64,000 nucleotides of DNA. Source: a virus (taxonomy: Duplodnaviria; Heunggongvirae; Uroviricota; Caudoviricetes). Positions within the stretch are counted from its first letter, which is position 1. Every line of letters starts with the position of its first letter. The translations under genes and the position numbers were made by a program. Below are positions 1 to 52,667 of this stretch, piece by piece. The notes beneath the pieces are model-generated. The model did no database searches. It saw only the letters and a program-made list of their open reading frames with translations, and was not told the origin of the DNA. The stretch lies in IMG/VR virus record IMGVR_UViG_3300027917_000030, one strand, 5' to 3'.

Positions 1-360
1 CAAGTTCTCTGGTTTGATATCAAGATGAATAATTCCTGAATCATGGACAGTGCCGACTCCATAGCAGGCATGTTTAAACAACTTAAGGCCAATATCTCTC
101 CTAGTTTCGAGATCTCTTTCATTTTGTTTAAGCCAATTTCTAAAAGTAACCTTACGCTTAACATCCTTCATGTCATAAGCGTTATAGCACTCCTGGATAA
201 TATCAACCGCATGACTTCCTAACTTATTAGAAATTTCTTTAGGAAGTCCGCCATAATCTGGATAATCAAAATAGAAGTTTGGGTCCTCTAATTGTTTTTT
301 ATTTTCCCAAAGAACATCTACAAGTTCTTCAAACATTTTAACACCAAACTCATCTTTCAT
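1..360 (-). CDS. Protein-kinase-like protein, N-terminal part (3' end runs off the window edge)
   Basis: Minus-strand ORF starting with ATG at 358-360 and a GGAGAAG RBS upstream. Translation ends ...HDSGIIHLDIKPENL, which matches a Ser/Thr kinase catalytic loop (HxDxKPxN). The N-lobe motifs are not clearly visible. Confidence 0.4.
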   Translation of the reverse strand, partial: MKDEFGVKMFEELVDVLWENKKQLEDPNFYFDYPDYGGLPKEISNKLGSHAVDIIQECYNAYDMKDVKRKVTFRNWLKQNERDLETRRDIGLKLFKHACYGVGTVHDSGIIHLDIKPENL

Positions 361-412
361 AATCTTCTCCAATATTAAAAACCAGGAAAAGTTGCAAAAG
401 GCAGAAATACCC

Positions 413-460
413 GAAGGTTTAAGGGATTTGAACCCTTTAGTAATTTACATACAAAGTAAA
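413..460 (-). tRNA. Orphan tRNA 3' portion: anticodon arm (TGT, Thr-like) + variable loop + T-arm + acceptor 3' strand; no matching 5' half nearby
   Basis: Minus-strand RNA reads TTTAC-TTTGTAT-GTAAA-TTACT-AAGGG-TTCAAAT-CCCTT-AAACCTT-C. It has a perfect 5-bp anticodon stem with a U33/purine-37 loop and a canonical T-arm. No complementary acceptor 5' strand (AAGGTTT) or D-arm lies upstream. Motif A directly precedes it. Confidence 0.35.
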
Positions 461-468
461 AACATTAT

Positions 469-493
469 CCGAAGTAGCCTTTTACCGGACCTT
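469..493 (-). repeat. Copy A of the 24-30 nt motif (minus-strand consensus yCAwGGTCCAG-N5-GGmTACTTCAAA)
   Basis: Plus strand CCGAAGTAGCCTTTTACCGGACCTTGG. It lies between the tRNA-Tyr 3' end and the orphan tRNA 3' portion. It is the most diverged copy (CCGG instead of CCAG, TTCGG instead of TTCAA). Confidence 0.5.
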
Positions 494-497
494 GGTT

Positions 498-584
498 TGG
501 TGGGTGCGGGAGGAATCGAACCTCCAAAGCCCGAAGGCCACAGGGTTACAGCCTGCCAAGCTCACCACACTGCTCAACGCACCC
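498..584 (-). tRNA. tRNA-Tyr (anticodon GTA), class II long variable arm, CCA encoded
   Basis: Minus-strand read: GGGTGCG-TT-GAGC-AGTGTGGTGA-GCTT-G-GCAGG-CTGTAAC-CCTGT-GGCCTTCGGGCTT-GGAGG-TTCGATT-CCTCC-CGCACCC-A-CCA. The acceptor stem is 7 bp, the D-stem 4 bp, the anticodon stem 5 bp with loop CTGTAAC (U33, GUA, A37), and the T-arm GGAGG/CCTCC. Confidence 0.85.
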
Positions 585-896
585 TTATCCGATTATATTA
601 CAAAAAGGCCACGATTCTCCTATTTTAGGTTTCTTAAATCTTCTCTGACAATACTCTTTATGATACCTTTCTAACGTCTCTTCATCATTACATATTACTT
701 CGGGAAGATCTGGCCCAACCCATTTTTTAAGATGTAGCCAAAAACCAAAAGTATCCAGTGCTTCACGGGACGCTGGACTACCAGCTTCATTATCATTAAT
801 TCTTACTGTGTCCGTTTCAGTTCTTCCATCCCTATGATCTATTAAAGTAAACTCTATTACATTGCGGGTTTTATCTTTAAAATGTATTTCTATCAT
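585..896 (-). CDS. Hypothetical protein (103 aa)
   Basis: ORF in the minus-strand gene series. No recognisable motif. Confidence 0.35.
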   Translation of the reverse strand: MIEIHFKDKTRNVIEFTLIDHRDGRTETDTVRINDNEAGSPASREALDTFGFWLHLKKWVGPDLPEVICNDEETLERYHKEYCQRRFKKPKIGESWPFCNIIG

Positions 897-905
897 AAAA
901 AGCCC

Positions 906-1181
906 CTAATCATCAAAGAACCTAATATTCGTTACCTTCAGTTCTCCTGTTTCTGGATCCAAAATTTCCTGATTAATGTTGGAAATTCTTGCTACGTCTC
1001 CAGAATAAACATTACAAACTCCCATGTTCGCCCATCGAACCATTGGACCGCCACCATCGCTGTAATGATTGGCTCGCTCAAACACCACACCGAAGGTTCC
1101 CTTGCGAACATTAGCACCGTTGGGATCCAAATGCCTAACAGCGATAACCATATCGCCACGTTCTAAGTCTAATTGCCTCAT
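906..1181 (-). CDS. Hypothetical protein (91 aa)
   Basis: ORF, no recognisable motif. Confidence 0.35.
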   Translation of the reverse strand: MRQLDLERGDMVIAVRHLDPNGANVRKGTFGVVFERANHYSDGGGPMVRWANMGVCNVYSGDVARISNINQEILDPETGELKVTNIRFFDD

Positions 1182-1184
1182 GAT

Positions 1185-1391
1185 TTATATCCTTTTAAAA
1201 CTAACTACACCCTCTTTATTTGTAGTACCTATGCAATCATAACCACCAACATGATATGGAGAATAGTCACCAAATGCACTTTTCAAAAACTCTGTGGCTA
1301 TTTCCACAGCATCATATTCGTCAGTCCCAATTTCGAATGAGAAAATTTCATATGGTGTTTCTAGTTGTACTTGATATAATCTCATAATCAA
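1185..1391 (-). CDS. Hypothetical protein (68 aa)
   Basis: ORF, no recognisable motif. Confidence 0.3.
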   Translation of the reverse strand: MIMRLYQVQLETPYEIFSFEIGTDEYDAVEIATEFLKSAFGDYSPYHVGGYDCIGTTNKEGVVSFKRI

Positions 1392-1684
1392 ATTTTTAAA
1401 ACAAAGACTAAAAATGCTTCCGCTACAAGAACATATACTATAAAAGTTATAAGAAGTGTTAATGCGACTAAACCTACGCCTCTAATTATTTTATTTCTAC
1501 GTTGATCAAGTATTTCATTAATCATCCTTCTTACTTCTTTTTCTTCCATAAAAACTCCAGGAAAATTCGCTTAGGGGTTTATCTGCACCGTGCCTCCCCA
1601 TAATGACCTTTGATGTGATCTCTGGTCAAATGACCATTTACAAATACCCAGTACGGCTCCGATTTTGTAAATGTCCGTATGTCG

Positions 1685-1732
1685 TGGGGAGCCCAGGACT
1701 CGAACCTGAGTGTCAAAAAGTAATCAGCCTTT
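1685..1732 (-). tRNA. Orphan tRNA 3' portion: anticodon arm (GAT, Ile-like, T at position 37) + variable loop + T-arm (TTCGAGT) + acceptor 3' strand GCTCCCC-A; no matching 5' half found
   Basis: Minus read: AAAGG-CTGATTA-CTTTT-TGACA(C)-TCAGG-TTCGAGT-CCTGG-GCTCCCC-A. The acceptor would need GGGGAGC, which is absent upstream. The adjacent 5' half (1808-1839) has CCACGGG and cannot pair with it. Motif B overlaps its 5' end. Confidence 0.35.
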
Positions 1733-1757
1733 GAAGTATCCCTTCGCTGGACCATGG
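1730..1757 (-). repeat. Copy B of the 24-30 nt motif
   Basis: Plus TTTGAAGTATCCCTTCGCTGGACCATGG (minus: CCATGGTCCAGCGAAGGGATACTTCAAA). Confidence 0.6.
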
Positions 1758-1807
1758 ATATATTTTACATACTAAAAGATCAGGAAAAAGTCGAATAGAG
1801 TATCTCT

Positions 1808-1839
1808 CTCGATGCTCTAACCATCTGAGCTACCCGTGG
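1808..1839 (-). tRNA. tRNA 5' half (acceptor 5' strand + D-arm + anticodon-stem 5' strand), apparently the partner of the 3' half at 1963-1997 (permuted order)
   Basis: Minus read CCACGGG-TA-GCTC-AGATGGTTA-GAGC-A-TCGAG. It has a canonical U8-A9, a 4-bp D-stem and a GG-containing 9-nt D-loop. The only complementary acceptor 3' strand (CCCGTGG) lies upstream in transcript orientation. Confidence 0.5.
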
Positions 1840-1962
1840 AATATTAAAAAGGAAGACATTTCACTTTCGGCAGCCATCCCAGTTTTGCCTTTCGCTTTGT
1901 CGGTTAGAGGTAATTTCATCTCTGGGAAGATAAACTACGTATCCTTTCAAAGTCTCCCTTAG

Positions 1963-1997
1963 TCCACGGGGTAGGATTCGAACCTACGACCCTCAAG
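1963..1997 (-). tRNA. tRNA 3' half (anticodon-stem 3' strand + variable loop + T-arm + acceptor 3' strand + discriminator A), partner of the 5' half at 1808-1839
   Basis: Minus read CTTGA-GGGTC-GTAGG-TTCGAAT-CCTAC-CCCGTGG-A. The acceptor is 7/7 complementary to CCACGGG. CTTGA pairs with TCGAG (one G.U). Confidence 0.5.
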
Positions 1998-2002
1998 TTT
2001 TA

Positions 2003-2026
2003 TTTGAAGTATCCCTAGTCTGGACC
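2003..2026 (-). repeat. Copy C of the 24-30 nt motif
   Basis: Plus TTTGAAGTATCCCTAGTCTGGACC (minus CAAGGTCCAGACTAGGGATACTTCAAA). It overlaps the stop codon of the 2015-2287 ORF and sits immediately 5' of the tRNA 3' half. Confidence 0.6.
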
Positions 2027-2287
2027 TTGATCTTCTAGTTCAATAAACCTGTCTATTGCTTTTTCTATTTCATCTAATTTAAAATTTTCAATAGGAACGG
2101 GAATCATTTCCTGTCTGCCCTCAAACTCTTCATAACAGTTTTCACAAACTGAATATCCTATGAGTTTCATGGGCTCATAAATCTTACCCCCATCCATCCA
2201 TAAAAGCATACCCTGTAAAGTATATTTATCACCATATACGATTTGTCTGCTTTTAAGTTTGGATAGTATCTTTTCTTTATCCATCAA
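2015..2287 (-). CDS. Hypothetical protein (90 aa)
   Basis: ORF. It contains a CENC Cys pair. Its C-terminal codons run into motif C. Confidence 0.35.
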   Translation of the reverse strand: MMDKEKILSKLKSRQIVYGDKYTLQGMLLWMDGGKIYEPMKLIGYSVCENCYEEFEGRQEMIPVPIENFKLDEIEKAIDRFIELEDQGPD

Positions 2288-3086
2288 TCAAGAAATGCCA
2301 TGTTTGTTGACCATGAAGCATTGCTCTCCGTATTAGGAATTACTCTATGCCAAAAGGTTAATTCAATAGTGGCGTGATCAGGGTGACTTACTTTTCCCCT
2401 GCAAAACACTGCCGCATCACGCCGCATAACAGTCCAATTCATGGCTTTAGCAGAAGGATCTTTCTTAATCAACTCTTTATATTTCTCTTCAGTGAGTCCA
2501 TCAGGATATTTCCAACACCTATGGACGGTAGTTCCTCCGGAACGAAAAACCTCTTCAACCATATGTGCCTTACCACGTCCGCGTCGAATAGGTTCGTTAC
2601 GGATTATCTTATCTTCACTAACTTCCATATTAGGATGTGGAATGAAGAACCATTCACCCTGGCGAACATAACCCTCGTTATGACGCTTATGCTTTTTCTG
2701 TTTCCTAACACCCTTACGCTCTTGGCTCTCACGAGCCTCGGGGGGTTTCAAGGCTTCCTTAGCCTCCCAGACCGTATTAGCTCCGCCAGGAACAGCAGCA
2801 ACAAACCAACTACGCTCATCGTGACCGCAGAGAAAGCGCTCCTTATTCCCATCAGAGTCCTTGAATAATACAACAAGGTGACGGTCAGCAGGATCTACAT
2901 TAATGATTAGCATCTCAGGATCATCTTCGGGATTATATCCAACGTCGAAGTATTCTCCTTTCTTATCGGTACGAACATCAAGTAGATGGCTGCGACTAGA
3001 GCCCCAGCGTCCAGCGCTCAAGTCACGAACTTTAACTCGTGCGCCCATCTTTGCAAAATGTTTCTCAATAGATTCCTTGTTAAACA
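2284..3086 (-). CDS. Hypothetical protein (about 267 aa; start trimmed to the internal ATG with a GGAG RBS)
   Basis: The ORF track gives 2284-3123 with a GTG-type start. An internal Met (MFNKESIEK...) preceded by GGAGATCTT is a more convincing start. No family recognised. Confidence 0.45.
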
Positions 3087-3105
3087 TAAGATCTCCTCTT
3101 AAAAA

Positions 3106-3125
3106 GAGGTGTTTTAAAAACACCC
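3106..3125 (-). other. Perfect 8-bp hairpin GGTGTTTT/AAAACACC
   Basis: Palindrome ggtgttttaaaaacacc immediately upstream of the 2284-3086 gene. It could be an operator or terminator. Confidence 0.3.
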
Positions 3126-3165
3126 AGGAATGAGTCGTAAAAGGGGTACGGAGTCAAATTAAATG

Positions 3166-3189
3166 TTTGAAGTAGCCTTTTACTGGACC
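3166..3189 (-). repeat. Copy D of the 24-30 nt motif
   Basis: Plus TTTGAAGTAGCCTTTTACTGGACC (minus CCATGGTCCAGTAAAAGGCTACTTCAAA). There is no tRNA part next to it. About 40 nt of the downstream sequence resembles that following copy E (..ATTTGAC..TCC..CTTTTACGA..TTCCTGgG). Confidence 0.6.
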
Positions 3190-3205
3190 ATGGGACTATA
3201 ACATT

Positions 3206-3477
3206 CTATAACGGAGTCACTAACGGTAATCTATCTAGTTCCTCCAAATCAATCTCAATGATTCTCTCCCAACCGCTGCTGTTAAAACCAGGTGCATCAA
3301 ATTGAATACCCACCATACCATTTTTCCATGGAGAGAAATTCAACCCGAACCAAACCTTTTTAAAACCACCAAAATACCATTCTCCAGCAATTTTCACCAA
3401 ATACTTTTTGTTTAAATCAACATCAGGATGGAAGTGTTTTTCAGCTTTGGATAAATCTAAAACTCTTAACATTTTAA
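3206..3477 (-). CDS. Hypothetical protein (about 90 aa; start trimmed so as not to overlap the tRNA)
   Basis: The ORF-track ORF 3206-3583 runs through the tRNA at 3490-3593. The internal Met (MLRVLDLSK...) gives a non-overlapping gene. Confidence 0.3.
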
Positions 3478-3489
3478 GATATCCTTTCT

Positions 3490-3593
3490 TAGCGGAGGTG
3501 GGAATTGAACCCACGTAGCCGAGGTCATGACCCTCGGTCGAGAAGCTTCCCGGCCTAATCCTAGACCGTTCGGCTACCAACACTCTCCCCGCT
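3490..3593 (-). tRNA. Atypical long tRNA (about 104 nt): clear T-arm (GTGGG-TTCAATT-CCCAC), acceptor AGCGGGG/CTCCGCT-A and a 6-bp variable-arm hairpin; the D/anticodon region cannot be folded canonically (possible intron or another split gene)
   Basis: Minus read ...AGCGGGGAGAGTGTTGGTAGCCGAACGGTCTAGGATTAGGCCGGGAAGCTTCTCGACCGAGGGTCATGACCTCGGCTACGTGGGTTCAATTCCCACCTCCGCTA. The acceptor pairs 7/7 with one G.U. The region between the acceptor and T-arm is too long for a class II tRNA. Confidence 0.35.
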
Positions 3594-3641
3594 CATAAAA
3601 AAGCTCAGGAAAAAATCGTAAGAGGAGTTGTCAAATCCCAT

Positions 3642-3665
3642 TTTGAAGTATCCCCTAACTGGACC
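3642..3665 (-). repeat. Copy E of the 24-30 nt motif
   Basis: Plus TTTGAAGTATCCCCTAACTGGACC (minus CAAGGTCCAGTTAGGGGATACTTCAAA). It lies about 50 nt 5' of the long tRNA. Confidence 0.6.
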
Positions 3666-3727
3666 TTGAGCACAGTAGTCAACCAGGAATAACCGCATGA
3701 AGTATAGTCTCGTTTTGAACCCAAATC

Positions 3728-3752
3728 AAATGAAGTAACTCCATACTGGACC
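3728..3752 (-). repeat. Copy F of the 24-30 nt motif
   Basis: Plus AAATGAAGTAACTCCATACTGGACC (minus CAAGGTCCAGTATGGAGTTACTTCATTT). Confidence 0.5.
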
Positions 3753-3864
3753 TTGACTAACCATTTCTAATTATAAGATCATAAACCCAAATATGTCGAC
3801 AATCTTTTTTAAATACTATAAAATTAAAGCGAAATTTCGGTGCGTCGAAAATAAGCGACCGAAA

Positions 3865-3893
3865 ATTTTTTTCGAAAATCACGCGCACGCGTT
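3865..3893. repeat. Copy 1 of a 30-nt motif ATTTTTTTCGAAAAyCACGCGCACG(c/a)(g/a)TT (palindrome TTTTCGAAAA + GC dyad ACGCG-CA-CGCGT)
   Basis: Sequence ATTTTTTTCGAAAATCACGCGCACGCGTT at the 3' end of pyrC. The same block recurs at 33105-33133 and 61737-61766. Confidence 0.6.
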
Positions 3894-4943
3894 CTTTATT
3901 CTCCACTTTAAATATCTACCACAGGAAAACGGGTATGGTATATCAGCAGAAAAGTGAAAATCATGTCGATGTTTCCTTATCATCATATACCATGAATCAT
4001 AGGTATCATCGCCAGAAGCATCATATAGAGTAAGTTGTTTTAATGTAGTCTCCCACCCATAAAATTTTGCGCCATAAATACTTGTAAAACCTTCCAGTCT
4101 ATCCAGTTTGTCCACAGAGTCAAACGCTTCAGCGTAATGCTCAATCGCTGCCGGTGCTGTAAAACAACCAGGAACACCCTGTTCTTCCTTTTTGGATCTT
4201 GGATGTGGTGCACTATCAGTACCCGCAAAAAACCTTGAATTGCCACTTGTGGCTGCTTCCAGTAACGCCTTTCTGTCTGACTCCTTTTTTGCAATGGGCA
4301 AACAAAAATAATGTGGATTAATCATGTTATTTGCAAAAATGGAATCTCTTGAAATTAACAAATGATGTGGTGTTATTGTAGCCCACAAATTCTGGATTAT
4401 GTTATTCTTGATTAAACTAGCAGCATATGCGGTAGTAATGTGTTCCAACACAACGCGTAACTTAGGGTAATCAGCACATAAATTAAACAAATAATTTCGA
4501 ATAAATGCCTCTTCTCGTTCGAATATTCCATATCTTGTATCTTCACCATGTATTAATAAGGGAATGTCTAATCTCTGCATGTGTGCTAATATCCATTTAA
4601 TTTTCTCTATGCTTGTTACTCCGTGCTTGCTATTTACTGTAGCCCCAACAGGATACAACTTGCAACCAGCAAAACATGGATCATTTGACAATGCCTCCAA
4701 GTCTTCTATATTGGTATCGTCTGTTAGATAAAGAGTCATCATGGGGGAAAAGGAAACGTTAAGATCTCTTAATTGTTGACTATAATCTATAACAAGATTC
4801 CGTGTAGTTAGGGGAGGAGTTGTGTTTGGCATTACCACAACCCTATTGAACTGGCGTTCTGAATATGGTACGACCATTCGCATCATCTCATCATTCCTAA
4901 GATGAGCATGACAATCATCTGGCATTTTAATTGTGAATTGCAT
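3879..4943 (-). CDS. pyrC: Dihydroorotase, class II (PyrC)
   Basis: MPDDCHAHLRNDEMMRMVVPYSERQFNRVVVMPNTTPP aligns with E. coli PyrC ([21 protein letters not shown]...AIVMPNLAPP). Full length is about 350 aa. Confidence 0.85.
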   Translation of the reverse strand: MQFTIKMPDDCHAHLRNDEMMRMVVPYSERQFNRVVVMPNTTPPLTTRNLVIDYSQQLRDLNVSFSPMMTLYLTDDTNIEDLEALSNDPCFAGCKLYPVGATVNSKHGVTSIEKIKWILAHMQRLDIPLLIHGEDTRYGIFEREEAFIRNYLFNLCADYPKLRVVLEHITTAYAASLIKNNIIQNLWATITPHHLLISRDSIFANNMINPHYFCLPIAKKESDRKALLEAATSGNSRFFAGTDSAPHPRSKKEEQGVPGCFTAPAAIEHYAEAFDSVDKLDRLEGFTSIYGAKFYGWETTLKQLTLYDASGDDTYDSWYMMIRKHRHDFHFSADIPYPFSCGRYLKWRIKNACA

Positions 4944-4949
4944 CTTGCC

Positions 4950-5480
4950 TCACAAATCTTTCAAAATTGTTTGCATAATTAAATCAATGCACGAATCTAT
5001 ATCATTTTTATCAGTTTCGAGAATAAGATCTGGATTAGACGGATTTTCGTACGGTGCATCTATACCCGTAAGCCCTTTCATTTTGCCGCTACGCTGTTTC
5101 ATATACAAACCTTTCGGATCTCTTTTTTCGCAAATTTCTATCGGGCATTTCACAAAAACCTCTTTAAACTTCGAACCTATTATCTGTCTGGCTGAATCTC
5201 TAGAACCTTGATATGGAGATATAAACGCACAGATAGTAATAATTCCCAGATCTGATATCAATTTCGCAACCTGTGTAACCCTACGTATATTTTCTTCTCT
5301 ATCCTCTTTTGAAAAAGATAGATCGGCATTTAATCCCGTACGCAGTTTGTCACCATCCAATATACAGGTTAAATATCCCAAACCTTTCAATTTAGATTCT
5401 AACGCCTGGGCTATCGTCGATTTTCCTGATCCGCTGAAACCAGTAAGCCAAATTACAGTTCCAGATTTAGCAAGTTTCAT
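4950..5480 (-). CDS. cysC: Adenylylsulfate (APS) kinase
   Basis: P-loop GFSGSGKSTIA, then LDGD, FSKEDREENIRRV and FISPY..R, matching E. coli CysC almost motif for motif. Length 176 aa. Confidence 0.8.
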   Translation of the reverse strand: MKLAKSGTVIWLTGFSGSGKSTIAQALESKLKGLGYLTCILDGDKLRTGLNADLSFSKEDREENIRRVTQVAKLISDLGIITICAFISPYQGSRDSARQIIGSKFKEVFVKCPIEICEKRDPKGLYMKQRSGKMKGLTGIDAPYENPSNPDLILETDKNDIDSCIDLIMQTILKDL

Positions 5481-5615
5481 TACTCGGCTGTTTTCTCCTT
5501 GAGTTTTCTATATCCATATTTGAGTAATTCCCAAGCAAACGGTCCGGCCACCAAGCCAATTGTTAATCCGAAAACAAAATCCATTTTGAAAATCACCTCC
5601 TAAAATAAAGTATAA

Positions 5616-6209
5616 TTATATAATTTTATTAGTAGTTTGCCTAAATTCTGATTTTCTAAATATAGACTTTACTGGAATTCCATATTTATTTTCAATAGTT
5701 TCTTTTCCACCTTCTTGCCTATCCACAAGCACTAAACATCCCGCAGCCTTAAGTCCAATATCAGCCAAACCATCAAGACATACGGCTAACGAACTGCCTG
5801 TGGTAAGCACATCATCTACGACAACCATGTTTGTTGTACCCTTGCTAAACCCAGCCGGCAACTCAACTTTTCTCTTTGTTCCATGTTCTTTTTTGGAATC
5901 ACGCACATGGATTATATGTCCTTGAGCAACCAACGCAGCGGCGCTGGCGATATAGGAACCACCAACTCCAGTTGCTACAAACTGTGCGGCTTCAAACTCA
6001 GCCCAGCATTTAGAAGCAAATATAAAACCCACATCCATGTGACCTTCTGGCGAAAGAATTACAGGTCTACAATCAATATAGAAATCTGATTTCTTTCCAG
6101 AGCGTAACGTAAACTCTCCAAACTTTACAGAATACTTTTCCAACAGAATTTTGATCGAAATACAATGTCCGTTGTATTTTATCTTATGGTCTCTTAATGT
6201 CTGCATCAA
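5616..6209 (-). CDS. pyrE: Orotate phosphoribosyltransferase (type I PRTase)
   Basis: KFGEFTLRSGKKSDFYIDCR (compare E. coli PyrE KFGEFTLKSGRKSPYFFN) and the PRPP-binding loop VVVDDVLTTGSS. Confidence 0.7.
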   Translation of the reverse strand: MMQTLRDHKIKYNGHCISIKILLEKYSVKFGEFTLRSGKKSDFYIDCRPVILSPEGHMDVGFIFASKCWAEFEAAQFVATGVGGSYIASAAALVAQGHIIHVRDSKKEHGTKRKVELPAGFSKGTTNMVVVDDVLTTGSSLAVCLDGLADIGLKAAGCLVLVDRQEGGKETIENKYGIPVKSIFRKSEFRQTTNKII

Positions 6210-16762: not shown

Positions 16763-18241
16763 TCAACAGTTCGATTGAAATTCAACAATATACCTTAATC
16801 TATGTTGTTGTCCTGATCCAGAGCCTGCATAAGTCATATTTTCTGAGTTATAAAGACCACTACCTGGTATTGCATATACACTATGATAACCATGTGGAGG
16901 CTGTCTGAAAAATTGTGATCTGGTAACAACATGTGGTTTACCCACAACAACATCCTCTAAAAATAAAAAGGCCCTATTGCTCTTACTACCACCAGACCAA
17001 TATGCCCCACGGCAACCTGTATAATTCATTGATTTTGTTGAGTTTTCTGCATGGTACAGCGCGTCACCAAACATGGAGCCCGTATAAACTGCACCAGATG
17101 GGCGTATCAACAGGCCACGAGTAATGATACCAACCATATTTTGTGGACGCGTACCATGCCACAACGGCCAAACATTGGCAGTTGTGAAAACTTCTTTTTC
17201 ATCTTCACTCAAATCTGGGCGATTCAATTTAGTAAATTTTGGCTGATATTTAGTTCTTCCTTTCCCAATCTGCTTTGCAACTTTTTCTGCCGTAGCCATG
17301 AAATGGTCAGGCTCACCATTTCGAACAAGTTTGAAAATATTAAATATTTTAACACGCCCCAGAAAACTATGATTTCTTGCTCGAGTTTCGTGGGTTAACA
17401 TTTCAACCCATTTATAAATAGGATCAGAAGGATCAATCCAGTCCAACTCAGCATTTAACTTTCTATATTGTTCATCAACCGCCGTGCCTTTACCTAAAAC
17501 GGAAGCAACATTTTTAGCATCTAAAAAGGTATCCAACGTATCATGCTTTTCCATAACTCGATCAATATTATCGAGCCGCAAAGATGTTGGATCAATCTTA
17601 TGTGGCAAAACGTGTGGTATAAGACTGTAGAACTGTGATGTTAGATTATCATAAGCAGTTACATCTGACCTATTTGCCGAGATTAACTTTTTACATTCAT
17701 CTAAGACTGATCGCCCCTTGTCTATTTGTTCCCTGGTAAGTTGTCCCAGAGGACACTTGAGATTCATCTCGATAAAATGACCCGTAGAACCGAACCAACC
17801 AGACACCAAACGCTGGACTTCGGCATGTAGCACACTGATCCCCTTGCCAGCCTCAATGCCCGTCATAGGCTTTTTGATTTCTTTAGCACCAGCAGAACCA
17901 ACACTGGTGATTGCTAAATCAACTTCCCTATATGGATCCTTCTTGCGGTCTCGCTTCTTTTTAACCAGTGATTCATAATCCGACAAGCAAGCGTCTTCTG
18001 ATGAATAATATCTATATTCCTTCGCAGAAGTCTTACCAACTCTGCCGTACATCGTGAAAATTCTTGCTTTTCCATCGGATGCAACTTGAATCTCAGCATG
18101 ATAAAATTTATTTGAATTTTTTATCACGTCGGTGCAATTCCCTTCCCACCTTTTTGTCACCCTAAAGTCTGATGGAAACGGCGGCTGATTAGCATCACCA
18201 TCTTTCCAAACTTTCGCTTTCATACTTGCGCCCATACTCAC
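16763..18241 (-). CDS. Poly(ADP-ribose) polymerase-like protein: WGR domain + PARP catalytic domain
   Basis: N-terminal W..FY...GRVG (WGR). C-terminal LWHGTRPQNMVGIITRGLLIRP...GSMFGDALYHAENSTKSMNYTG...YIVEF aligns with PARP1 [23 protein letters not shown]...[21 protein letters not shown]...YNEYIVY. The H-Y-E triad is present. Confidence 0.8.
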   Translation of the reverse strand: MSMGASMKAKVWKDGDANQPPFPSDFRVTKRWEGNCTDVIKNSNKFYHAEIQVASDGKARIFTMYGRVGKTSAKEYRYYSSEDACLSDYESLVKKKRDRKKDPYREVDLAITSVGSAGAKEIKKPMTGIEAGKGISVLHAEVQRLVSGWFGSTGHFIEMNLKCPLGQLTREQIDKGRSVLDECKKLISANRSDVTAYDNLTSQFYSLIPHVLPHKIDPTSLRLDNIDRVMEKHDTLDTFLDAKNVASVLGKGTAVDEQYRKLNAELDWIDPSDPIYKWVEMLTHETRARNHSFLGRVKIFNIFKLVRNGEPDHFMATAEKVAKQIGKGRTKYQPKFTKLNRPDLSEDEKEVFTTANVWPLWHGTRPQNMVGIITRGLLIRPSGAVYTGSMFGDALYHAENSTKSMNYTGCRGAYWSGGSKSNRAFLFLEDVVVGKPHVVTRSQFFRQPPHGYHSVYAIPGSGLYNSENMTYAGSGSGQQHRLRYIVEFQSNC

Positions 18242-23479: not shown

Positions 23480-23783
23480 TTTTCTGCTTCCTTATTGCTG
23501 AAATAACTAAATATGCGATTAGAAATCCCAAAAAATCACTAATAGAATCACCAACTATTTTATTAATAAATTCTTCTTTACCCGCAAATGGAAATGAGGG
23601 CATGTTGTTTACAACCCAATGTTCAAACATTTCCCAAATAAAAGCAACTGCAAGAGCCGCTGCCCAAACCTTTTTCTTAAATACAGGATAAAGAACAGTA
23701 GTGATTGCTATAAACCAAACTATATGATGTAAAGAGTAAAAATCAAATAAAGTTGTGCCTCCGCTTCCCCATATCCAATTCAT
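23463..23783 (-). CDS. Small polytopic membrane protein (106 aa)
   Basis: Three predicted TM helices. Confidence 0.35.
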   Translation of the reverse strand: MNWIWGSGGTTLFDFYSLHHIVWFIAITTVLYPVFKKKVWAAALAVAFIWEMFEHWVVNNMPSFPFAGKEEFINKIVGDSISDFLGFLIAYLVISAIRKQKNGKNG

Positions 23784-25098
23784 AATCTAAAACCGCCCTT
23801 TCAAATAAATCTTGTAGACTTTTGTGTGGAAAAACAGGTACGGATGTTTTACCACTTGGCACGAGCGAAGCGAGATTTGGGTGTAGAGATAATAAAGCAG
23901 CATTACAATATTTACGCACCACCTTTAAATCCACATCTTCACTCACAGATTCTCCATTATTGATATGGCAATCTAATAAAGGAGTTAGTTTCTCGGAGGG
24001 ATTTACAGCACCATCGACTGCCAATAAGTGCTGCCACTCTCCATCTCGCTGATCTAAAAATATCTGCTTTTTGCCAGGAACAGTCATTGATTGTGGTCTA
24101 ATTATCGGTTTGTCATTTGTATCGTCATAGACCATTTCATATGATATATCCAAGAGCGGAGCATCTCTGGAAGTCACCAAATCCGCACCCACTTCAAAAC
24201 AATCTATTGGCAGACCACAACGAGAGAGTTCATCAATAATATACTCGTTTAAATTCCCAAATACAGTAATGCTAGCATTGGTTTTACCAGCCGCATCTAA
24301 TGTTCTCCGAACATCAGACAATATCTTTGGATCTTTAAACTCAAGTCGCACACCATCCAATCGAGGGCTTTCGGTTGCCAATACCGCACCGTGAACAGGA
24401 TCGTATGTATCGATTAGCAAAACGGGATCCTTGAATGTCCGTTTTATAATCTCATACGCCTCTTGTTCCCTCTTATTAACCATTACCCATGTATGAGACA
24501 TGTCCCCAGTAACAGGGATGTTAAATCTTCTACTGGCTTCAACATTTGATGTAGCCGTGAATCCAGAAATGTATGCAGCACGAACAGCCCGTATCGCAGC
24601 CTCATGATGTGTTCGTTTCGTGCTAGATTCAATCACAGATTTTCCCCTGGCAGCCAAAACAATCCTGGCTGCCTTAGAAGCAATTTTTATATCATGAGAT
24701 AAAACAGACAACACAAAGGTTTCCGCCATATGAACTTCAGGTAATGTACCAGTGATTCTAATTAATGGCTCACCAGTGAAAACAATCTCCCCCTCAGCCA
24801 TCGACCAAAACTCTCCATTAAATTTAAAGTCTTCCAAGAATCTATCAAAATTAGACATATTCATAATACTTTTAAGTATCGGAATATCTTTAAGAAATTT
24901 GATATCATCTTTGGTAAATTTAAGATTTAACAGGAATTCTTTTATCTCTTCTGTTCCAGCCATAACCAAAAATCGACGCTCAGGGGGCAGTTTGTGCACG
25001 AAAGCCTCACATGTTACCACCCTTTTATGCAGCCCTTTATAAAATTGAACTGCCATCATAGCAATTTGGTGTAGGTCAACTTTCAGACTTTCGTGCAT
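23743..25098 (-). CDS. pncB: Nicotinate (or nicotinamide) phosphoribosyltransferase, NAPRTase family
   Basis: FTGEPLIRITGTLPEVHMAETFVLSVLSHDIKIASKAARIV, RAAYISGFTATSNV, IPVTGDMSHTWV, LLIDTYD and GVRLEFKDP track E. coli PncB (LLRIEGPL..ETPLLNLINFQTLIATKAARV; RAAYIGGADATSNV; IPVAGTMAHSFV; LLVDTYD; GVRIDSGD). Confidence 0.75.
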   Translation of the reverse strand: MHESLKVDLHQIAMMAVQFYKGLHKRVVTCEAFVHKLPPERRFLVMAGTEEIKEFLLNLKFTKDDIKFLKDIPILKSIMNMSNFDRFLEDFKFNGEFWSMAEGEIVFTGEPLIRITGTLPEVHMAETFVLSVLSHDIKIASKAARIVLAARGKSVIESSTKRTHHEAAIRAVRAAYISGFTATSNVEASRRFNIPVTGDMSHTWVMVNKREQEAYEIIKRTFKDPVLLIDTYDPVHGAVLATESPRLDGVRLEFKDPKILSDVRRTLDAAGKTNASITVFGNLNEYIIDELSRCGLPIDCFEVGADLVTSRDAPLLDISYEMVYDDTNDKPIIRPQSMTVPGKKQIFLDQRDGEWQHLLAVDGAVNPSEKLTPLLDCHINNGESVSEDVDLKVVRKYCNAALLSLHPNLASLVPSGKTSVPVFPHKSLQDLFERAVLDYELDMGKRRHNFI

Positions 25099-33104: not shown

Positions 33105-33133
33105 ATTTTTTTCGAAAATCACGCGCACGAGTT
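33105..33133. repeat. Copy 2 of the 30-nt TTTTCGAAAA/GC-dyad motif
   Basis: ATTTTTTTCGAAAATCACGCGCACGAGTT overlapping the stop codon region of lon. Confidence 0.6.
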
Positions 33134-35461: not shown

Positions 35462-36640
35462 CTATTTTTTGCCCTTTAAAAGTATAAATTTTCTGGAAAG
35501 GGCATGCAATCGGTCATTTTTATCATCATATATACAAAACATAATAGTGCGAATTAAACCCTTTTGAGAACATGCAACTTTAGCAAACTCTTTCCTAACC
35601 GCCGGATCGGTACGATCAGCATCAGGGTGCTCAGTAAAGAACTCATTCGCAAGTATTGTCGCCGAACCCAACAACACAACCCATGCCTGGCAGAAGGAAA
35701 GGTACTGCTCATAAAATTCCTTCGCGGATTCAATAATCTCCCAATCATAATCGCAGGCCTGGAGTTCTGTAACTAGTTGTGACTCATTCTTGATATTCGC
35801 ACTCTCAACAAATTCCACTATTGTTGGATATCTCATCGAAAATTTCATTCGATGATTTGCTAAATAATGAGCGCTCTTTATCTTAACAAAGTTTTGATCT
35901 GGATTTCCCTTTTGATCCTCGCATCTTACAACCACCCCTTCATCCTTCCATACCTTCACCTCTTCTATTAGTTTTATGGGATCGCTGGGCAGTTCATGTA
36001 GCCTTACCAAATTGAGATTACCAACATCAGCAACCTCTTCCAACTCCTCCCATTCCCCAATTCTTAGATCATTGTGCATCACAAAGCCAAGAAAAATCAG
36101 ATCTTCTGATTTATATCTCACTACTATTGTATTACTTGGGGCTACATATTCGAATAACAGCGATCTGTCTGTCAGCCAAGTATTGTCCAATAGTTTTGGA
36201 TATTTTTGGGTGGCAACTAATTTAAATCTTTCTCCAAATGATGGCTCGTCATCGGTGGCTTCTCCGCCAAACATTGTGCCACGCGTTCGGAAGATCACCC
36301 GACCATCTATTATCGACCTAATTGCCAAACTTCCATCCTCTTTATGGCTGAATATCACTGGCCTATTACTTGCCAGGGCGTGATCCAAAGAAGATGTGTC
36401 CGTAACAAACTCTCCATAGTTACCAAACTTTTTCCAAGAACATGAGACAACAAACCCATTATTGTCTACGACCACAGATCGAAGCCACTTCTCGTCTTCT
36501 TCCCAATCCCAAAGATTCTTTTTAGGACAAACTAATGTTAGCCCATCTTGGGTAGCGATTTTGAAATCAGATCGTATCTTACTAATGTCTAACTTTACTC
36601 TATTATTCTCAGTTGTCCACATAGATCTTTCCCTATGCAT
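35462..36640 (-). CDS. ATP-dependent RNA ligase, T4 Rnl1 (RnlA) family
   Basis: Nucleotidyltransferase motif I IFSHKEDGSLAIRSIIDGRVIFRTRG matches T4 Rnl1 [25 protein letters not shown]. Length 392 aa against 374 aa for T4. Confidence 0.7.
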   Translation of the reverse strand: MHRERSMWTTENNRVKLDISKIRSDFKIATQDGLTLVCPKKNLWDWEEDEKWLRSVVVDNNGFVVSCSWKKFGNYGEFVTDTSSLDHALASNRPVIFSHKEDGSLAIRSIIDGRVIFRTRGTMFGGEATDDEPSFGERFKLVATQKYPKLLDNTWLTDRSLLFEYVAPSNTIVVRYKSEDLIFLGFVMHNDLRIGEWEELEEVADVGNLNLVRLHELPSDPIKLIEEVKVWKDEGVVVRCEDQKGNPDQNFVKIKSAHYLANHRMKFSMRYPTIVEFVESANIKNESQLVTELQACDYDWEIIESAKEFYEQYLSFCQAWVVLLGSATILANEFFTEHPDADRTDPAVRKEFAKVACSQKGLIRTIMFCIYDDKNDRLHALSRKFILLKGKK

Positions 36641-39325: not shown

Positions 39326-40600
39326 TCATCTTATTACTTTTTCTACCACTTCCATGCATAACTGATTAATTTTATGATAGTCGGGCGTTCTAGGTAGCGG
39401 CGACAACTTTTCATCATAGATTTTATTAAGTTTTTCCTGCTGTTTATCAGCCCACTCTAACAGTTCGTCAAACTCCCAAGCTCCCTTTCTAATTGACAGT
39501 AATTCTTCAGCATCATGCCGATGAACATTCACAACCCCTTTAGAAAGGATCTCTTCCGCCATCCTCAGCAACCTGACAAGATGAGAGGCGTGCTTTCCAT
39601 CATATCCAAATTGAGCTTCCATCGCAGCACGCGCAGGATTTCTATTAGCTTTCCATTCCTGGTATTGTTTATAGTATTTAAGCGCTCCTTTATATCTGCG
39701 CTCCTTATCAAGTAATTCCAAGAAGTTAGTATTGTATCCTAGCACTCTGCCTGCCGCATTTGATAGTTCACTAACGTTGAAGTCATTAAAATCATCTAAC
39801 GGCGGAATAATCGGTTTGTACGATTCTCCGTCGCGGACATAACAATCCGCTGCTAGCCCTTCCCACATTTCTTTCAGGGCTGAGGCGGTGTTCCTTCTCA
39901 CGGACTCCAGAACCTCCCTGGGAAGCTCGTCCGGAAGTAGGATCCATTCCTCCACCTTCTTCTTGATAAGCCCTTCAGCAGCCTCTCTGTGATCCCTGGA
40001 TAGCAAGCTGCGTTCAGGAAGTCCAAAGTCTGCCCTGGTCGGCTTCGTTTTTGGTGGGTTGAGGAGCCAAGCTCGGTGGGTTTTGATGCGCTTCAGCTGA
40101 GAGAATGCATATCCACAGAATCTAAACTTTGCTTTCGTGGATAGAAATAGATCCCTTTTCTCAAGTATCCTTTTCCAGTGCTCAGAAGAAACAAGATGAT
40201 GCGCCTCATCTGTAAACAGCACCTCAATAATGTTGGGATTACAATCTGCAGCCAGCTTGAAAAACTTTCGGATATCATAGATTGTTGAGTCAATTTGTTC
40301 ATCGGGTGGTATAGAACGCCCGACCGTATCTTCTATTCTCTCAATGAAAGTTTTGTTTTTCCACGAAAGGAGGGGGGGTTGAGGGGAGACTGACCTTGAG
40401 ATAAACCCATCCTGTCCACGAAAATCTCTAGGGAATTGTCCCTCATATTGTTCAAATCGGTTAAAAAACCCATGAAAATATGACTTGGGTGGGACTGCCA
40501 CACCTTTTATATCTACGTCAGATTCTGGACCAGACATACCATAGGCGTGGCTTCCATGAAGAGTTACAAAAATAGTATGATCTTCGATCTTAAATTCCAT
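39326..40600 (-). CDS. Pol-beta-superfamily nucleotidyltransferase (424 aa)
   Basis: VTLHGSHAYGMSGPESDVDIKGV fits hG[GS]-x10-DhDh of minimal nucleotidyltransferases. The C-terminal helical domain is unknown. Confidence 0.5.
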   Translation of the reverse strand: MEFKIEDHTIFVTLHGSHAYGMSGPESDVDIKGVAVPPKSYFHGFFNRFEQYEGQFPRDFRGQDGFISRSVSPQPPLLSWKNKTFIERIEDTVGRSIPPDEQIDSTIYDIRKFFKLAADCNPNIIEVLFTDEAHHLVSSEHWKRILEKRDLFLSTKAKFRFCGYAFSQLKRIKTHRAWLLNPPKTKPTRADFGLPERSLLSRDHREAAEGLIKKKVEEWILLPDELPREVLESVRRNTASALKEMWEGLAADCYVRDGESYKPIIPPLDDFNDFNVSELSNAAGRVLGYNTNFLELLDKERRYKGALKYYKQYQEWKANRNPARAAMEAQFGYDGKHASHLVRLLRMAEEILSKGVVNVHRHDAEELLSIRKGAWEFDELLEWADKQQEKLNKIYDEKLSPLPRTPDYHKINQLCMEVVEKVIR

Positions 40601-52666: not shown

Positions 52667-52667
52667 T

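What the first reader, a model, noticed from the sequence alone, without database searches (positions are those of the whole stretch)
1808..1997. Apparent circularly permuted (split) tRNA gene: the 3' half is encoded 115 nt upstream of its 5' half
On the minus strand, 1839->1808 reads CCACGGG-TA-GCTC-AGATGGTTA-GAGC-A-TCGAG. This is a textbook acceptor 5' strand, U8-A9, D-arm and anticodon-stem 5' strand, but no T-arm follows it. Earlier in the same transcript orientation, 1997->1963 reads CTTGA-GGGTC-GTAGG-TTCGAAT-CCTAC-CCCGTGG-A. This is an anticodon-stem 3' strand that pairs with TCGAG, a 5-nt variable loop, a perfect T-arm, and an acceptor 3' strand that is 7/7 complementary to CCACGGG, plus a discriminator. 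Neither half has a contiguous partner. The nearest downstream 3' fragment (1685-1732) has the incompatible acceptor GCTCCCC. Joined in silico, the two halves give a near-ideal cloverleaf except for the anticodon loop, whose residues would come from the junction. A 3'-half-then-5'-half order is the hallmark of the permuted tRNA genes of the red alga Cyanidioschyzon and has not, as far as I know, been described in a phage. The same window encodes a T4 Rnl1-type ligase, an Rnl2-type ligase domain, a PNK-like kinase and phosphoesterases, which could in principle heal and seal such halves.
Basis: seen in the sequence. Interest (0 to 1): 0.7.

Follow-up and report, generated by a model that had tools for sequence, protein, structure and literature searches.

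The report
Phage Y-RNA-like tRNA mimic, not split tRNA
The two "tRNA halves" are real, but they are the two sides of a tRNA-shaped domain inside a larger structured non-coding RNA of the YrlA / Y-RNA type, a class already described as resembling circularly permuted tRNAs; it is one of six related copies in a huge-phage genome and not a split tRNA gene that needs joining.

Summary
On the minus strand, 1997-1963 holds an anticodon-stem strand, variable loop, T arm and acceptor 3' strand. 1839-1808 holds the acceptor 5' strand, D arm and the other anticodon-stem strand. The gap is 123 nt, not 115.

The interpretation as a permuted tRNA gene is not supported. Both halves lie inside one ~259-nt element (2032-1774), one of six paralogous elements at 3758-377. 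All six share a closing module: helix P1, the motif GGUCCAG, helix P2 and a U tail. Covariation across 27 copies from related huge-phage contigs supports P1 and P2.

A related contig (L119) carries the ortholog with the acceptor stem closed by a 6-nt loop. It shows three compensatory acceptor pairs and one in the anticodon-like stem. Rfam YrlA (Y RNA-like) matches that ortholog at E=2.7e-4, and the helix and loop lengths match the YrlA consensus. There is no anticodon loop.

Family members lie 1-3 kb upstream of Ro60/TROVE genes in the three phage loci of the closest Ro clade. No TROVE gene is in this window.

It is most likely a phage Y-RNA-like tRNA mimic, carrying an unusual 123-nt insertion in the acceptor loop.

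The parts
1774..2032 (-). Element E4: the whole structured RNA that contains both 'tRNA halves' (P1, GGUCCAG, P2, tRNA-like domain with insertion, P2', P1', U tail)
   Evidence: Sequence; family definition; the MFE fold forms the outer helix, T arm, acceptor stem and D arm; coordinates
2025..2032 (-). P1 5' strand GATCA-A-GG (one bulged nucleotide)
   Evidence: Pairs with CC-TGATC at 1784-1778. The three variable P1 pairs show double changes in 10-19 of 27 copies
2020..2026 (-). Conserved motif GGUCCAG. The first GG is paired in P1 and UCCAG is a 5-nt internal loop. Proposed Ro60-contact motif
   Evidence: Invariant or nearly invariant in 27 copies. It occupies the same position as gCGAAUG in the Rfam YrlA consensus. 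It resembles the GGUCCGA contacted by Xenopus Ro60 (PMC4201824). Binding is inferred, not tested
2013..2019 (-). P2 5' strand ACTAGGG
   Evidence: Pairs with CTCTATT at 1800-1794. All 7 P2 pairs show double changes across the family
1993..1997 (-). Anticodon-like stem, first strand CTTGA
   Evidence: Pairs with TCGAG at 1812-1808. The ortholog has CTCGT/ACGAG and L072_2189 has CCTGG/CCAGG. An alternative hairpin with the upstream CUUCAA is chosen by the MFE fold
1971..1987 (-). T arm GTAGG-TTCGAAT-CCTAC, preceded by variable loop GGGTC (1992-1988; C48 can pair with G15)
   Evidence: Sequence; partial Rfam tRNA match at 1963-2045; conserved in orthologs
1963..1970 (-). Acceptor 3' strand CCCGTGG plus discriminator-like A; no encoded CCA
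   Evidence: 7/7 complementary to 1839-1833; three compensatory pairs relative to L119 (CCGCTCG/CGAGCGG)
1840..1962 (-). 123-nt insertion that closes the acceptor stem, where the ortholog has a 6-nt loop. It folds into an extended arm (AAGGGAGAC/GUCUUCCUU plus inner hairpins)
   Evidence: Alignment with L119; fold z=-2.35; no similar sequence elsewhere in the window or in held loci; its 3' 81 nt are confirmed by independent contig L280
1833..1839 (-). Acceptor 5' strand CCACGGG, followed by U8-A9 (1832-1831)
   Evidence: Sequence; ARAGORN on the joined construct
1814..1830 (-). D arm GCTC-AGATGGTTA-GAGC (G18 and G19 present)
   Evidence: Sequence; the weak Rfam YrlA match at 1785-1866 is aligned on this arm; invariant TAGCTCAG..GAGC in all four YrlA-type copies
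1808..1812 (-). Anticodon-like stem, second strand TCGAG
   Evidence: See 1993-1997
1794..1800 (-). P2 3' strand CTCTATT, followed by the conserved CGACUUUUU internal loop (1793-1785)
1774..1784 (-). P1 3' strand CCTGATC plus U tail
1550..1759 (-). Element E5: same scaffold. T arm 1709-1693, GCTCCCC-A 1692-1685, 85-nt insertion (1684-1600), GGGGAGG 1599-1593, then a mini D-like GCACGGUGC
   Evidence: ortholog in L119 at +812 with the insertion conserved (83% identity)
377..497 (-). Element E6: same scaffold (GGUCCGG variant) with a tRNA-like part in standard order (anticodon-like hairpin, T arm 437-421)
   Evidence: ARAGORN at lowered threshold
3116..3195 (-). Element E3: minimal copy (P1, P2, one hairpin) with no tRNA-like part
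   Evidence: ortholog in L119 at +23
3597..3671 (-). Element E2: minimal copy
3676..3758 (-). Element E1: first copy of the array, divergent
3770..3799 (-). Sigma-70-like promoter match TCGACA-18-TATAAT just upstream of E1 (consensus match only)
   Evidence: 11/12 matches. The promoter-like count in the region is not above the shuffle expectation

Best explanation
[quoted passage not shown] E4 is one of six paralogous RNAs (E1-E6, 3758-377) that share a closing module: a 7-bp helix P1 formed by the two ends, a 5-nt loop within the conserved motif GGUCCAG, a 7-bp helix P2 and a U tail. In E4 the apical part is a YrlA-type tRNA mimic. The chain enters through an anticodon-like stem, runs through the variable loop, T arm, acceptor stem and D arm, and leaves through the other strand of the anticodon-like stem. 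Because the RNA enters and leaves at the anticodon end and not at the acceptor end, the linear order looks like a circular permutation, and there is no anticodon loop. The acceptor stem is closed by a 6-nt loop in the ortholog and by a 123-nt structured insertion here. These steps are shown by the data. The following steps are inferred by analogy with bacterial and phage Y RNAs. The P1/GGUCCAG module would bind a Ro60 (TROVE) ring protein, encoded elsewhere in the phage genome or by the host. The tRNA-like domain would engage tRNA-recognising enzymes or an effector. The RNP would act in RNA surveillance, repair or decay during infection. E4 has a full 7-bp acceptor stem with an AU-rich 5' leader (UUUUUAAUAUU), like M. 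smegmatis YrlA. It may therefore be cut by RNase P, trimmed at the 3' side and CCA-tailed, giving a two-piece RNA held together by the acceptor stem, P2 and P1. The phage encodes a CCA-adding-type enzyme at 51305-52786. My confidence differs by claim: about 0.9 that this is a tRNA mimic inside a larger RNA family and not a split tRNA gene, about 0.7 that the family is a Y-RNA/Ro60 partner, and about 0.25 that it is processed into two pieces.
For: Six copies share GGTCCRG...TACTTC...TTCCTG-Tn on one strand. A further 21 copies occur in eight related huge-phage contigs. On 27 copies, 94.4% of P1/P2 cells are paired, 10 of 14 pairs carry double changes, and 0 of 500 shuffles reach the observed values. 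The ortholog L119 +370 is 77-91% identical in the flanks. It has acceptor CGAGCGG/CCGCTCG with three compensatory pairs, a 6-nt closing loop, and anticodon-like stem CTCGT/ACGAG. Rfam YrlA (RF02553) matches L119 401-469 at 33.2 bits, E=2.7e-4. It matches L072 2074-2139 at 23.7 bits and L072 2220-2336 at 22.1 bits, and E4 itself at 13.3 bits. The YrlA consensus structure has an outer 6-bp stem, a 5-nt/8-nt internal loop, a 7-bp stem, an inner 4-bp stem, then T, acceptor hairpin, UA, D arm and a U-rich tail. E4 matches this element for element: 7 bp, 5 nt/9 nt, 7 bp, 5 bp, T, acceptor, UA, D, UUUU. The literature says YrlA lacks an anticodon loop and resembles a circularly permuted tRNA. It says the acceptor-stem length varies, that M. 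smegmatis YrlA with a 7-bp stem is cut by RNase P and CCA-tailed, and that YrlA RNAs occur in phages. For Ro60 linkage, family copies lie 1.1-3.9 kb upstream of a TROVE gene in L050/L141, L125 and L142. That is 3 of 3 loci whose Ro is at least 60% identical to L050's, and 0 of 77 more distant phage TROVE loci. None was found in 33 non-TROVE jumbo-phage loci or in cellular genomes. Homologs of the 267-aa ORF inside the array lie next to TROVE in L027 and L028. The window is rich in tRNA/RNA-repair genes: Rnl1, an Rnl2-like ligase, RlaP, a CCA-adding-type enzyme and a Thg1-like protein.
Against: No TROVE/Ro60 gene is in the 64-kb window (tblastn; HMM), and the array sits at the window edge, so the other side is unseen. 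All Rfam YrlA scores are below the gathering score of 69, and only the tRNA-like core aligns. The motif is GGUCCAG, not the bacterial GNCGAAN0-1G or the metazoan GGUCCGA, and its pairing partner differs from that in metazoan Y RNAs. The Rfam Y_RNA model gives no match. The three Ro-linked loci come from related phages, so the linkage could reflect shared ancestry and not function. Two copies (E2, E3) lack any tRNA-like part. The P2 register for the covariation count was chosen among 8 options per copy, which favours pairing. There are no expression, end-mapping or binding data.
Confidence: 0.72

Rival explanations
1. This is a true circularly permuted or split tRNA gene. The transcript is circularised or its ends ligated, for example by the phage Rnl1/Rnl2/PNK-type enzymes. 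RNase P and 3' processing then open the acceptor ends, giving a functional tRNA.
For: The order is 3' half then 5' half. The acceptor stem is a perfect 7 bp, and the D arm, T arm and tertiary-pair nucleotides are canonical. The joined construct is called a tRNA. RNA ligases and a CCA-adding-type enzyme are encoded in the window.
Against: No anticodon loop or U33/R37 context exists at either end of the anticodon-like stem. The sequences flanking the stem are the conserved P2/P1 scaffold shared with 26 other elements, including copies without any tRNA part. The ortholog closes the acceptor stem with a hexaloop. There is no bulge-helix-bulge motif. The architecture equals YrlA.
Confidence: 0.03
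2. These are intergenic structured repeats unrelated to Ro60. The elements would act as transcript-punctuation or stability modules. P1 plus the U tail would serve as a terminator or 3' protector, and the tRNA-like inserts as RNase P or RNase Z cleavage sites that cut polycistronic mRNAs.
For: Every copy lies between ORFs on the coding strand and ends in a U run followed by an RBS and start codon. Only E1 has a promoter-like site. No TROVE gene is in the window. Copies with no tRNA-like part exist.
Against: Single-stranded motifs (GGUCCAG, UACUUC, YGCGAYU) are strictly conserved, which suggests protein recognition beyond a terminator. P1 encloses up to 260 nt and is not a canonical intrinsic terminator, and none was called at these sites. 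The helix and loop lengths match the YrlA consensus. Copies co-occur with one Ro60 clade.
Confidence: 0.17
3. This is a two-piece, chargeable tRNA-like RNA analogous to two-piece tmRNA. The acceptor ends would be opened, CCA added and the RNA aminoacylated for a translation-linked role.
For: E4 has a 7-bp acceptor stem, a discriminator A, a leader and trailer on both sides of the stem, and no encoded CCA. The window has a CCA-adding-type gene. M. smegmatis YrlA provides a precedent.
Against: There is no tag reading frame or pseudoknots, and ARAGORN finds no tmRNA, permuted or otherwise. There is no anticodon for synthetase recognition. The ortholog has only a 6-nt loop. Aminoacylation has not been shown for any YrlA.
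Confidence: 0.06
4. This is an assembly artefact, rearrangement scar or tRNA pseudogene.
For: The upstream junction (3' half to insertion) was not verified independently. The insertion has no homolog.
Against: The scaffold around the halves is intact and orthologous to L119. The permuted order is shared by four YrlA-type copies in three contigs. The downstream junction is reproduced in an independent run assembly. Compensatory changes indicate selection on the stems.
Confidence: 0.02

Closest known systems
[quoted passage not shown] 2014, PMC4201824; crystal structure paper 10.1101/312249)
   Same: A tRNA-like domain in the order anticodon-like stem, (V), T arm, acceptor stem, UA, D arm, anticodon-like stem. 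There is no anticodon loop. The domain is mounted on stacked stems formed by the RNA's two ends with a 5-nt/8-9-nt internal loop and a U-rich tail. The tRNA tertiary-pair nucleotides are kept. The acceptor arm varies in length. The genomic context is RNA repair.
   Different: The conserved 5' motif is GGUCCAG, not GNCGAAN0-1G. Scores are below the Rfam gathering threshold. The junction between P2 and the anticodon-like stem is longer (15 nt/7 nt). A 123-nt insertion closes the acceptor stem. There are six tandem paralogs, some with no tRNA part and some with the tRNA part in standard order. No Ro60 gene is in the window.
Mycobacterium smegmatis YrlA (cut by RNase P, trimmed and CCA-tailed in vivo)
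   Same: A 7-bp acceptor stem, the main RNase P determinant, and no encoded CCA.
   Different: Processing of E4 is untested. E4 has long structured RNA, not a short loop, between the acceptor strands.
Deinococcus radiodurans Yrn1 and metazoan Y RNAs
   Same: A terminal stem made by the 5' and 3' ends, with a GGUCC-containing 5' strand and a bulged nucleotide. There is a U tail and a modular 'effector' part above the stem. Some family copies (E6, L050 +2101, L108 +1130) carry the tRNA-like part in the Yrn1-type standard order.
   Different: The 3'-strand partner and pairing register differ from the metazoan GGUC/GACU helix. There is no Rfam Y_RNA match.
Thermus phage phiLo Yrl1/Yrl2 with phage Ro60 (PMC12135203)
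   Same: Several phage-encoded Y-like RNAs lie upstream of a phage Ro60 gene, as for the relatives L050, L125 and L142.
   Different: The phiLo RNAs were defined by a CGAA motif and are not reported as tRNA-like. Binding was shown there and not here.
Circularly permuted tRNA genes of Cyanidioschyzon merolae and other algae (from my own knowledge)
   Same: The 3' half is encoded upstream of the 5' half, with a linker between the acceptor strands.
   Different: Those precursors form a bulge-helix-bulge at the ends, are circularised, and yield a tRNA with a normal anticodon loop. Here the ends form the conserved P2/P1 scaffold and no anticodon loop exists.
Two-piece tmRNA from permuted ssrA genes (from my own knowledge)
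   Same: Permuted order of the acceptor strands and possible two-piece maturation.
   Different: There is no tag ORF, no pseudoknots and no ARAGORN tmRNA call. A D arm is present.

Membership tests
YrlA-type Y RNA | tRNA-like module with a T stem-loop, an acceptor-like stem and a D stem-loop in that 5'-to-3' order, entered through an anticodon-like stem, with no anticodon loop | tested here: met
   Sequence; alignment with three other copies; the Rfam YrlA model aligns T, acceptor stem and D of the ortholog
YrlA-type Y RNA | Score at or above the Rfam RF02553 gathering threshold (69 bits) | tested here: not met
   E4 scores 13.3 bits. The ortholog L119 scores 33.2 bits, E=2.7e-4, and the L072 copies score 23.7 and 22.1 bits. 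There is no gathering-level hit in the window. Nine other phage TROVE loci also give no gathering-level YrlA hit, so the model appears insensitive for these phages.
YrlA-type Y RNA | Ro60-binding module: a stem formed by the RNA's 5' and 3' ends with the conserved 5'-strand motif GNCGAAN0-1G | tested here: inconclusive
   A terminal stem with covariation is present. The motif at the equivalent position is GGUCCAG, not GNCGAAN0-1G. It resembles the GGUCCGA of metazoan Y RNAs.
YrlA-type Y RNA | Encoded near a Ro60/Rsr (TROVE) gene | tested here: inconclusive
   Not met in the window, although the array is 377 nt from the window edge. Met for relatives L050/L141, L125 and L142, with copies 1.1-3.9 kb upstream of TROVE.
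YrlA-type Y RNA | Bound by Ro60; modified by TruB or DusA | not testable with these tools
   Needs co-IP or EMSA and modification mapping.
Circularly permuted tRNA gene (C. merolae type) | 3' half encoded upstream of the 5' half on one transcript | tested here: met
Circularly permuted tRNA gene (C. merolae type) | Transcript ends that can be joined to form a normal 7-nt anticodon loop (a bulge-helix-bulge or equivalent at the junction) | tested here: not met
   The flanks of the anticodon-like stem are AUACUUCAAAUAAAA and AGAGAUA, followed by the conserved P2/P1 helices. There is no U33-NNN-R37 context and no BHB.
Circularly permuted tRNA gene (C. merolae type) | Mature contiguous tRNA detectable | not testable with these tools
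   Needs RNA sequencing.
Two-piece (permuted) tmRNA | Tag-peptide reading frame and pseudoknots between the acceptor strands or after the 5' strand | tested here: not met
   ARAGORN finds no tmRNA. Rfam tmRNA gives only an 18-nt T-arm match elsewhere, at 3498-3515.
Metazoan-type Y RNA (Rfam RF00019) | Covariance-model match | tested here: not met
   No Y_RNA match at E<=10 in 1-6000 or in 1540-2045.

The most novel reading that the evidence does not exclude
One huge-phage RNA scaffold (P1-GGUCCAG-P2) carries tRNA-like domains in both circular permutations: YrlA-type in E4 and standard order in E6 and relatives. Other copies have only a partial tRNA-like part or none. E4 has a full 7-bp acceptor stem, a leader and a trailer. 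It would be opened by RNase P and 3' trimming and CCA-tailed by the phage's own nucleotidyltransferase, giving a two-piece tRNA mimic with a free, possibly chargeable, acceptor end. This RNA would work with the phage's Thg1-like, Rnl1, Rnl2-like and RlaP tRNA-repair enzymes.
Probability: 0.2. Interest if true: 0.65.

Novelty: new variant of a known kind. Interest (0 to 1): 0.4.

Why it matters
The result removes a false lead. There is no evidence for a permuted tRNA gene in a phage; the pattern is the known signature of YrlA-class tRNA mimics. It also defines a Y-RNA-like family that current Rfam models do not detect at threshold. That family appears confined to huge phages and occurs in arrays of up to six. 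It has a conserved GGUCCAG module and interchangeable apical parts, including tRNA-like domains in both topologies and long insertions in the acceptor loop. If Ro60 binding is confirmed, the family would give a natural series for studying how Y RNAs arise from tRNAs. It would also help show how phages use Ro60 RNPs alongside tRNA-repair enzymes during infection.

Tried and rejected
(1) A group I intron or intron-split tRNA, suggested by the repeated GGGATACTTCAAA upstream of two 3' halves. Rejected because the intervals are too short, Rfam finds no intron, and the repeat is part of the family scaffold.
(2) A Nanoarchaeum-type split tRNA with complementary leader and trailer. Rejected because the flanks are direct repeats (GATACT on both sides), not complementary.
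(3) A permuted tmRNA. Rejected because ARAGORN and Rfam find none.
(4) TTGAC in the elements as a -35 promoter box. Rejected because the insertions would break the spacing, and only E1 has a promoter-like site.
(5) Megablast of 1-6000 against INPHARED phages gave no match.
(6) Looking up the parent contig to see beyond the window start. Small ORFs were not on record, and only short Logan contigs were returned.
(7) A search for a TROVE gene in the window found none.
(8) A relative found through APS kinase in IMG/VR (L281) has no elements and no TROVE gene.
(9) The family pattern in cellular genomes gave 58 matches, none with the 3' module.
(10) The MFE hairpin CUUCAA/UUGAGG as the true partner of CTTGA in E4 remains possible as an alternative conformer. 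Covariation in the YrlA-type copies favours the CTTGA/TCGAG stem.
Full report
**Observation.**
- 1997-1963 reads CTTGA-GGGTC-GTAGG-TTCGAAT-CCTAC-CCCGTGG-A.
- 1839-1808 reads CCACGGG-TA-GCTC-AGATGGTTA-GAGC-A-TCGAG.
- The acceptor strands pair 7/7. U8, A14, G15/C48, G18G19 and the T loop are canonical.
- When the halves are joined through an artificial loop, ARAGORN calls a tRNA. On the native sequence it calls only tRNA-Tyr at 498-584.
- The spacer is 123 nt (1962-1840), not 115.
- T-loop motifs are strongly over-represented in the window: 7 observed against 0.24 expected.
- A Logan contig from another run (L280) is 100% identical to 1920-989. The junction from the insertion to the 5' half is therefore not specific to one assembly.

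**What surrounds the halves.** The halves are not isolated. GGGATACTTCAAA and GGTCCRG recur upstream of several T-arm fragments. This defines six elements, all on the minus strand: E1 3758-3676, E2 3671-3597, E3 3195-3116, E4 2032-1774, E5 1759-1550 and E6 497-377.
- All six share the same plan: NNNCA-N-GG (P1 5'), UCCAG, a 7-nt purine-rich strand (P2 5'), (R)UACUUC, a variable apical part, the P2 3' strand, YGCGAYU-U(n), CC-UGNNN (P1 3') and a U run.
- E2 and E3 have only a small hairpin as the apical part.
- E5 holds the 'incompatible' 3' fragment (T arm 1709-1693, GCTCCCC-A) together with its own partner GGGGAGG (1599-1593), separated by an 85-nt insertion.
- E6 holds a tRNA-like part in standard order.

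**Relatives.**
- A pattern scan of IMG/VR found one true relative, a 318-kb contig (L008/L050). It has two elements 1.1 and 3.9 kb upstream of a gene with TROVE and Ro60-vWA domains.
- A metagenome scan added L066, L070 and L125 (one 27.7-kb contig with five elements and a TROVE gene), L072, L105/L109 (a 460-kb contig), L108 and L119.
- L072 and L109 share APS-kinase and DHH genes with the window in the same neighbourhood, and L108 and L119 are close relatives of it.
- Nothing with the 3' module was found in cellular genomes.

**Structure.** I analysed 27 distinct copies.
- P1 and P2 are 94.4% paired. Ten of 14 pairs carry changes on both sides. No shuffle out of 500 reaches the observed covariation, and slid registers collapse to 18-58% paired.
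- One caveat applies. The P2 register was chosen per copy among eight options.
- With partners swapped among copies, P1 pairing falls from 4.70 to 3.27 of 5, and P2 pairing from 6.52 to 5.67 of 7.

**The ortholog settles the topology.** L119 +370 is the ortholog of E4, with flanks 77-91% identical against 72% for the neighbouring ORF DNA.
- It reads ...CTCGT-AGGTC-T arm-CCGCTCG-A-ATTGA-CGAGCGG-TA-GCTC-AGATGGTA-GAGC-G-ACGAG-AGAGATA-CTCTATT-CGACTTTTT-CCTGGTC-TTTTT.
- The acceptor stem differs from E4 at three base pairs, all compensatory, and is closed by a 6-nt loop.
- The anticodon-like stem has one compensatory pair and one G-U to G-C change.
- L072 +2189 has CCTGG/CCAGG at that stem and a ~57-nt insertion in its acceptor loop. 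L072 +2041 caps the acceptor arm with GAAA.
- The anticodon-like stem leads into P2 and P1, not into an anticodon loop.
- In E4 the MFE fold prefers an alternative hairpin, CUUCAA/UUGAGG. This may be a competing conformer.

**Identity.**
- Rfam's YrlA model (RF02553) matches the L119 ortholog at 33.2 bits, E=2.7e-4, over model positions 23-86. These cover the inner stem, T arm, acceptor hairpin, UA and D arm.
- It matches the two L072 copies at 23.7 and 22.1 bits and E4 itself at 13.3 bits.
- All scores are below the gathering score of 69.
- The YrlA consensus structure printed has a 6-bp outer stem, a 5-nt loop opposite an 8-nt loop, a 7-bp stem, a 4-bp inner stem, T, acceptor hairpin, UA, D arm and a U-rich tail.
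- E4 has 7 bp, 5 nt opposite 9 nt, 7 bp, 5 bp, T, acceptor arm, UA, D arm and UUUU.
- GGUCCAG sits where gCGAAUG, the GNCGAAN0-1G motif, sits in YrlA.

**What the literature says about YrlA** (Chen et al. 2014, PMC4201824; the YrlA structure paper, 10.1101/312249).
- YrlA has T, acceptor-stem and D stem-loops in this order.
- It lacks an anticodon loop and a free CCA end.
- Its acceptor stem varies in length.
- It is found in phages.
- M. smegmatis YrlA, which has a 7-bp stem, is cut by RNase P and CCA-tailed.
- GGUCCGA is the motif contacted by Xenopus Ro60.

**Ro60 linkage.**
- Among 80 phage TROVE loci (1.1 Mb), the family occurs only in L141 (the same contig as L050) and L142, whose Ro is 60% identical. 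L125's Ro is 65% identical.
- All three loci of that Ro clade therefore carry the family 1-3 kb upstream of Ro. None of the 77 more distant loci does.
- None of 33 non-TROVE jumbo-phage loci carries it.
- The window itself has no TROVE gene. The array lies 377 nt from the window edge, and the parent contig could not be extended.
- Rfam finds no gathering-level YrlA in nine other phage TROVE loci either. Low Rfam scores are therefore weak evidence against membership.

**Context.** The window encodes the following:
- Rnl1 (35462-36640)
- an Rnl2-like ligase (47376-47978)
- RlaP (39326-40600)
- a CCA-adding-type nucleotidyltransferase with an HD domain (51305-52786)
- a Thg1-like protein (56711-57586)
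- two calcineurin-like phosphoesterases
- a DHH protein
- GroEL, Lon, PARP, NAPRTase and NAD synthase

This is a huge-phage repertoire rich in tRNA and RNA repair, the setting in which Ro60 and Y RNAs are usually discussed (PMC7824862).

**Mechanism.**
- Shown: E4 is one RNA-structure unit with a YrlA-type tRNA mimic on a conserved two-helix scaffold.
- Inferred: the scaffold binds Ro60, and the tRNA-like domain recruits tRNA-recognising factors.
- Inferred: E4's 7-bp acceptor stem with an AU-rich 5' leader (UUUUUAAUAUU) and no encoded CCA may be opened by RNase P and CCA-tailed, giving a two-piece RNA.
- The function of the 123-nt insertion is unknown. It folds better than shuffles (z=-2.35) and has no homolog.

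**Verdict.** The permuted-tRNA-gene interpretation is not supported. The feature is a new variant of a known kind, a phage Y-RNA-like tRNA mimic.

Noticed in passing
window 3490-3593 (-): A tRNA-like gene that default ARAGORN misses. With the intron option it is called tRNA-Phe(gaa) with a 7-nt insertion in the anticodon region. It has a long variable arm (CCGAGG-GTCATGA-CCTCGG). Rfam gives a weak Tymo_tRNA-like match (29 bits). It is conserved in relative L108.
   Followed up: partly
window 59880-59950 (-): A tRNA-like sequence, GCTCCTG...CAGGAGC-CA, with good acceptor, D and T arms but a 6-bp stem with a 5-nt loop in place of a normal anticodon arm. It is called tRNA-Ile(tat) only at a lowered ARAGORN threshold.
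   Followed up: partly
window 3867-3889, 33107-33129, 61740-61762 (all -): A 23-nt repeat, CGTGCGCGTGRTTTTCGAAAAAA, present three times against 0 expected. One copy lies just upstream of the RNA array. It may be a phage promoter or regulatory site.
   Followed up: partly
window 61500-61740 (-): A GC-rich intergenic stretch of about 240 nt. It follows one copy of the 23-nt repeat and ends in a terminator-like hairpin plus a U run. It has no Rfam match at the gathering threshold and may be another non-coding RNA.
   Followed up: no
window 1600-1684 (-) and L119 ~880-968: The insertion in the acceptor loop of E5 is conserved (83% identity) in the related contig. The E4 insertion, in contrast, is absent from the ortholog.
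   Followed up: partly
window 2284-3087 (-): A 267-aa ORF inside the RNA array with no Pfam domain. It has homologs (24-45% identity) in 33 jumbo-phage contigs, usually inside tRNA arrays and next to TROVE genes in L027 and L028.
   Followed up: partly
L108 1130-1247; L050 2093-2210; L070 5790 and 3768 (-): Family copies in which a nearly complete tRNA in standard order sits inside the same P1/P2 scaffold. The Rfam tRNA model scores 48 bits on L108 1143-1212. The conserved UACUUC serves as part of the acceptor 5' strand.
   Followed up: partly
L147 3119-3207; L150 4379-4455; L146, L147, L150, L154, L027: Type-P5 twister ribozymes and tmRNA genes lie a few kb upstream of phage Ro60 genes in several unrelated viral contigs.
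   Followed up: no
window 16763-18241, 23743-25098, 46160-47107 (-): A PARP-like protein (WGR, regulatory and catalytic domains), together with NAPRTase and NAD synthase genes. This is an NAD-metabolism set in the same phage window.
   Followed up: no
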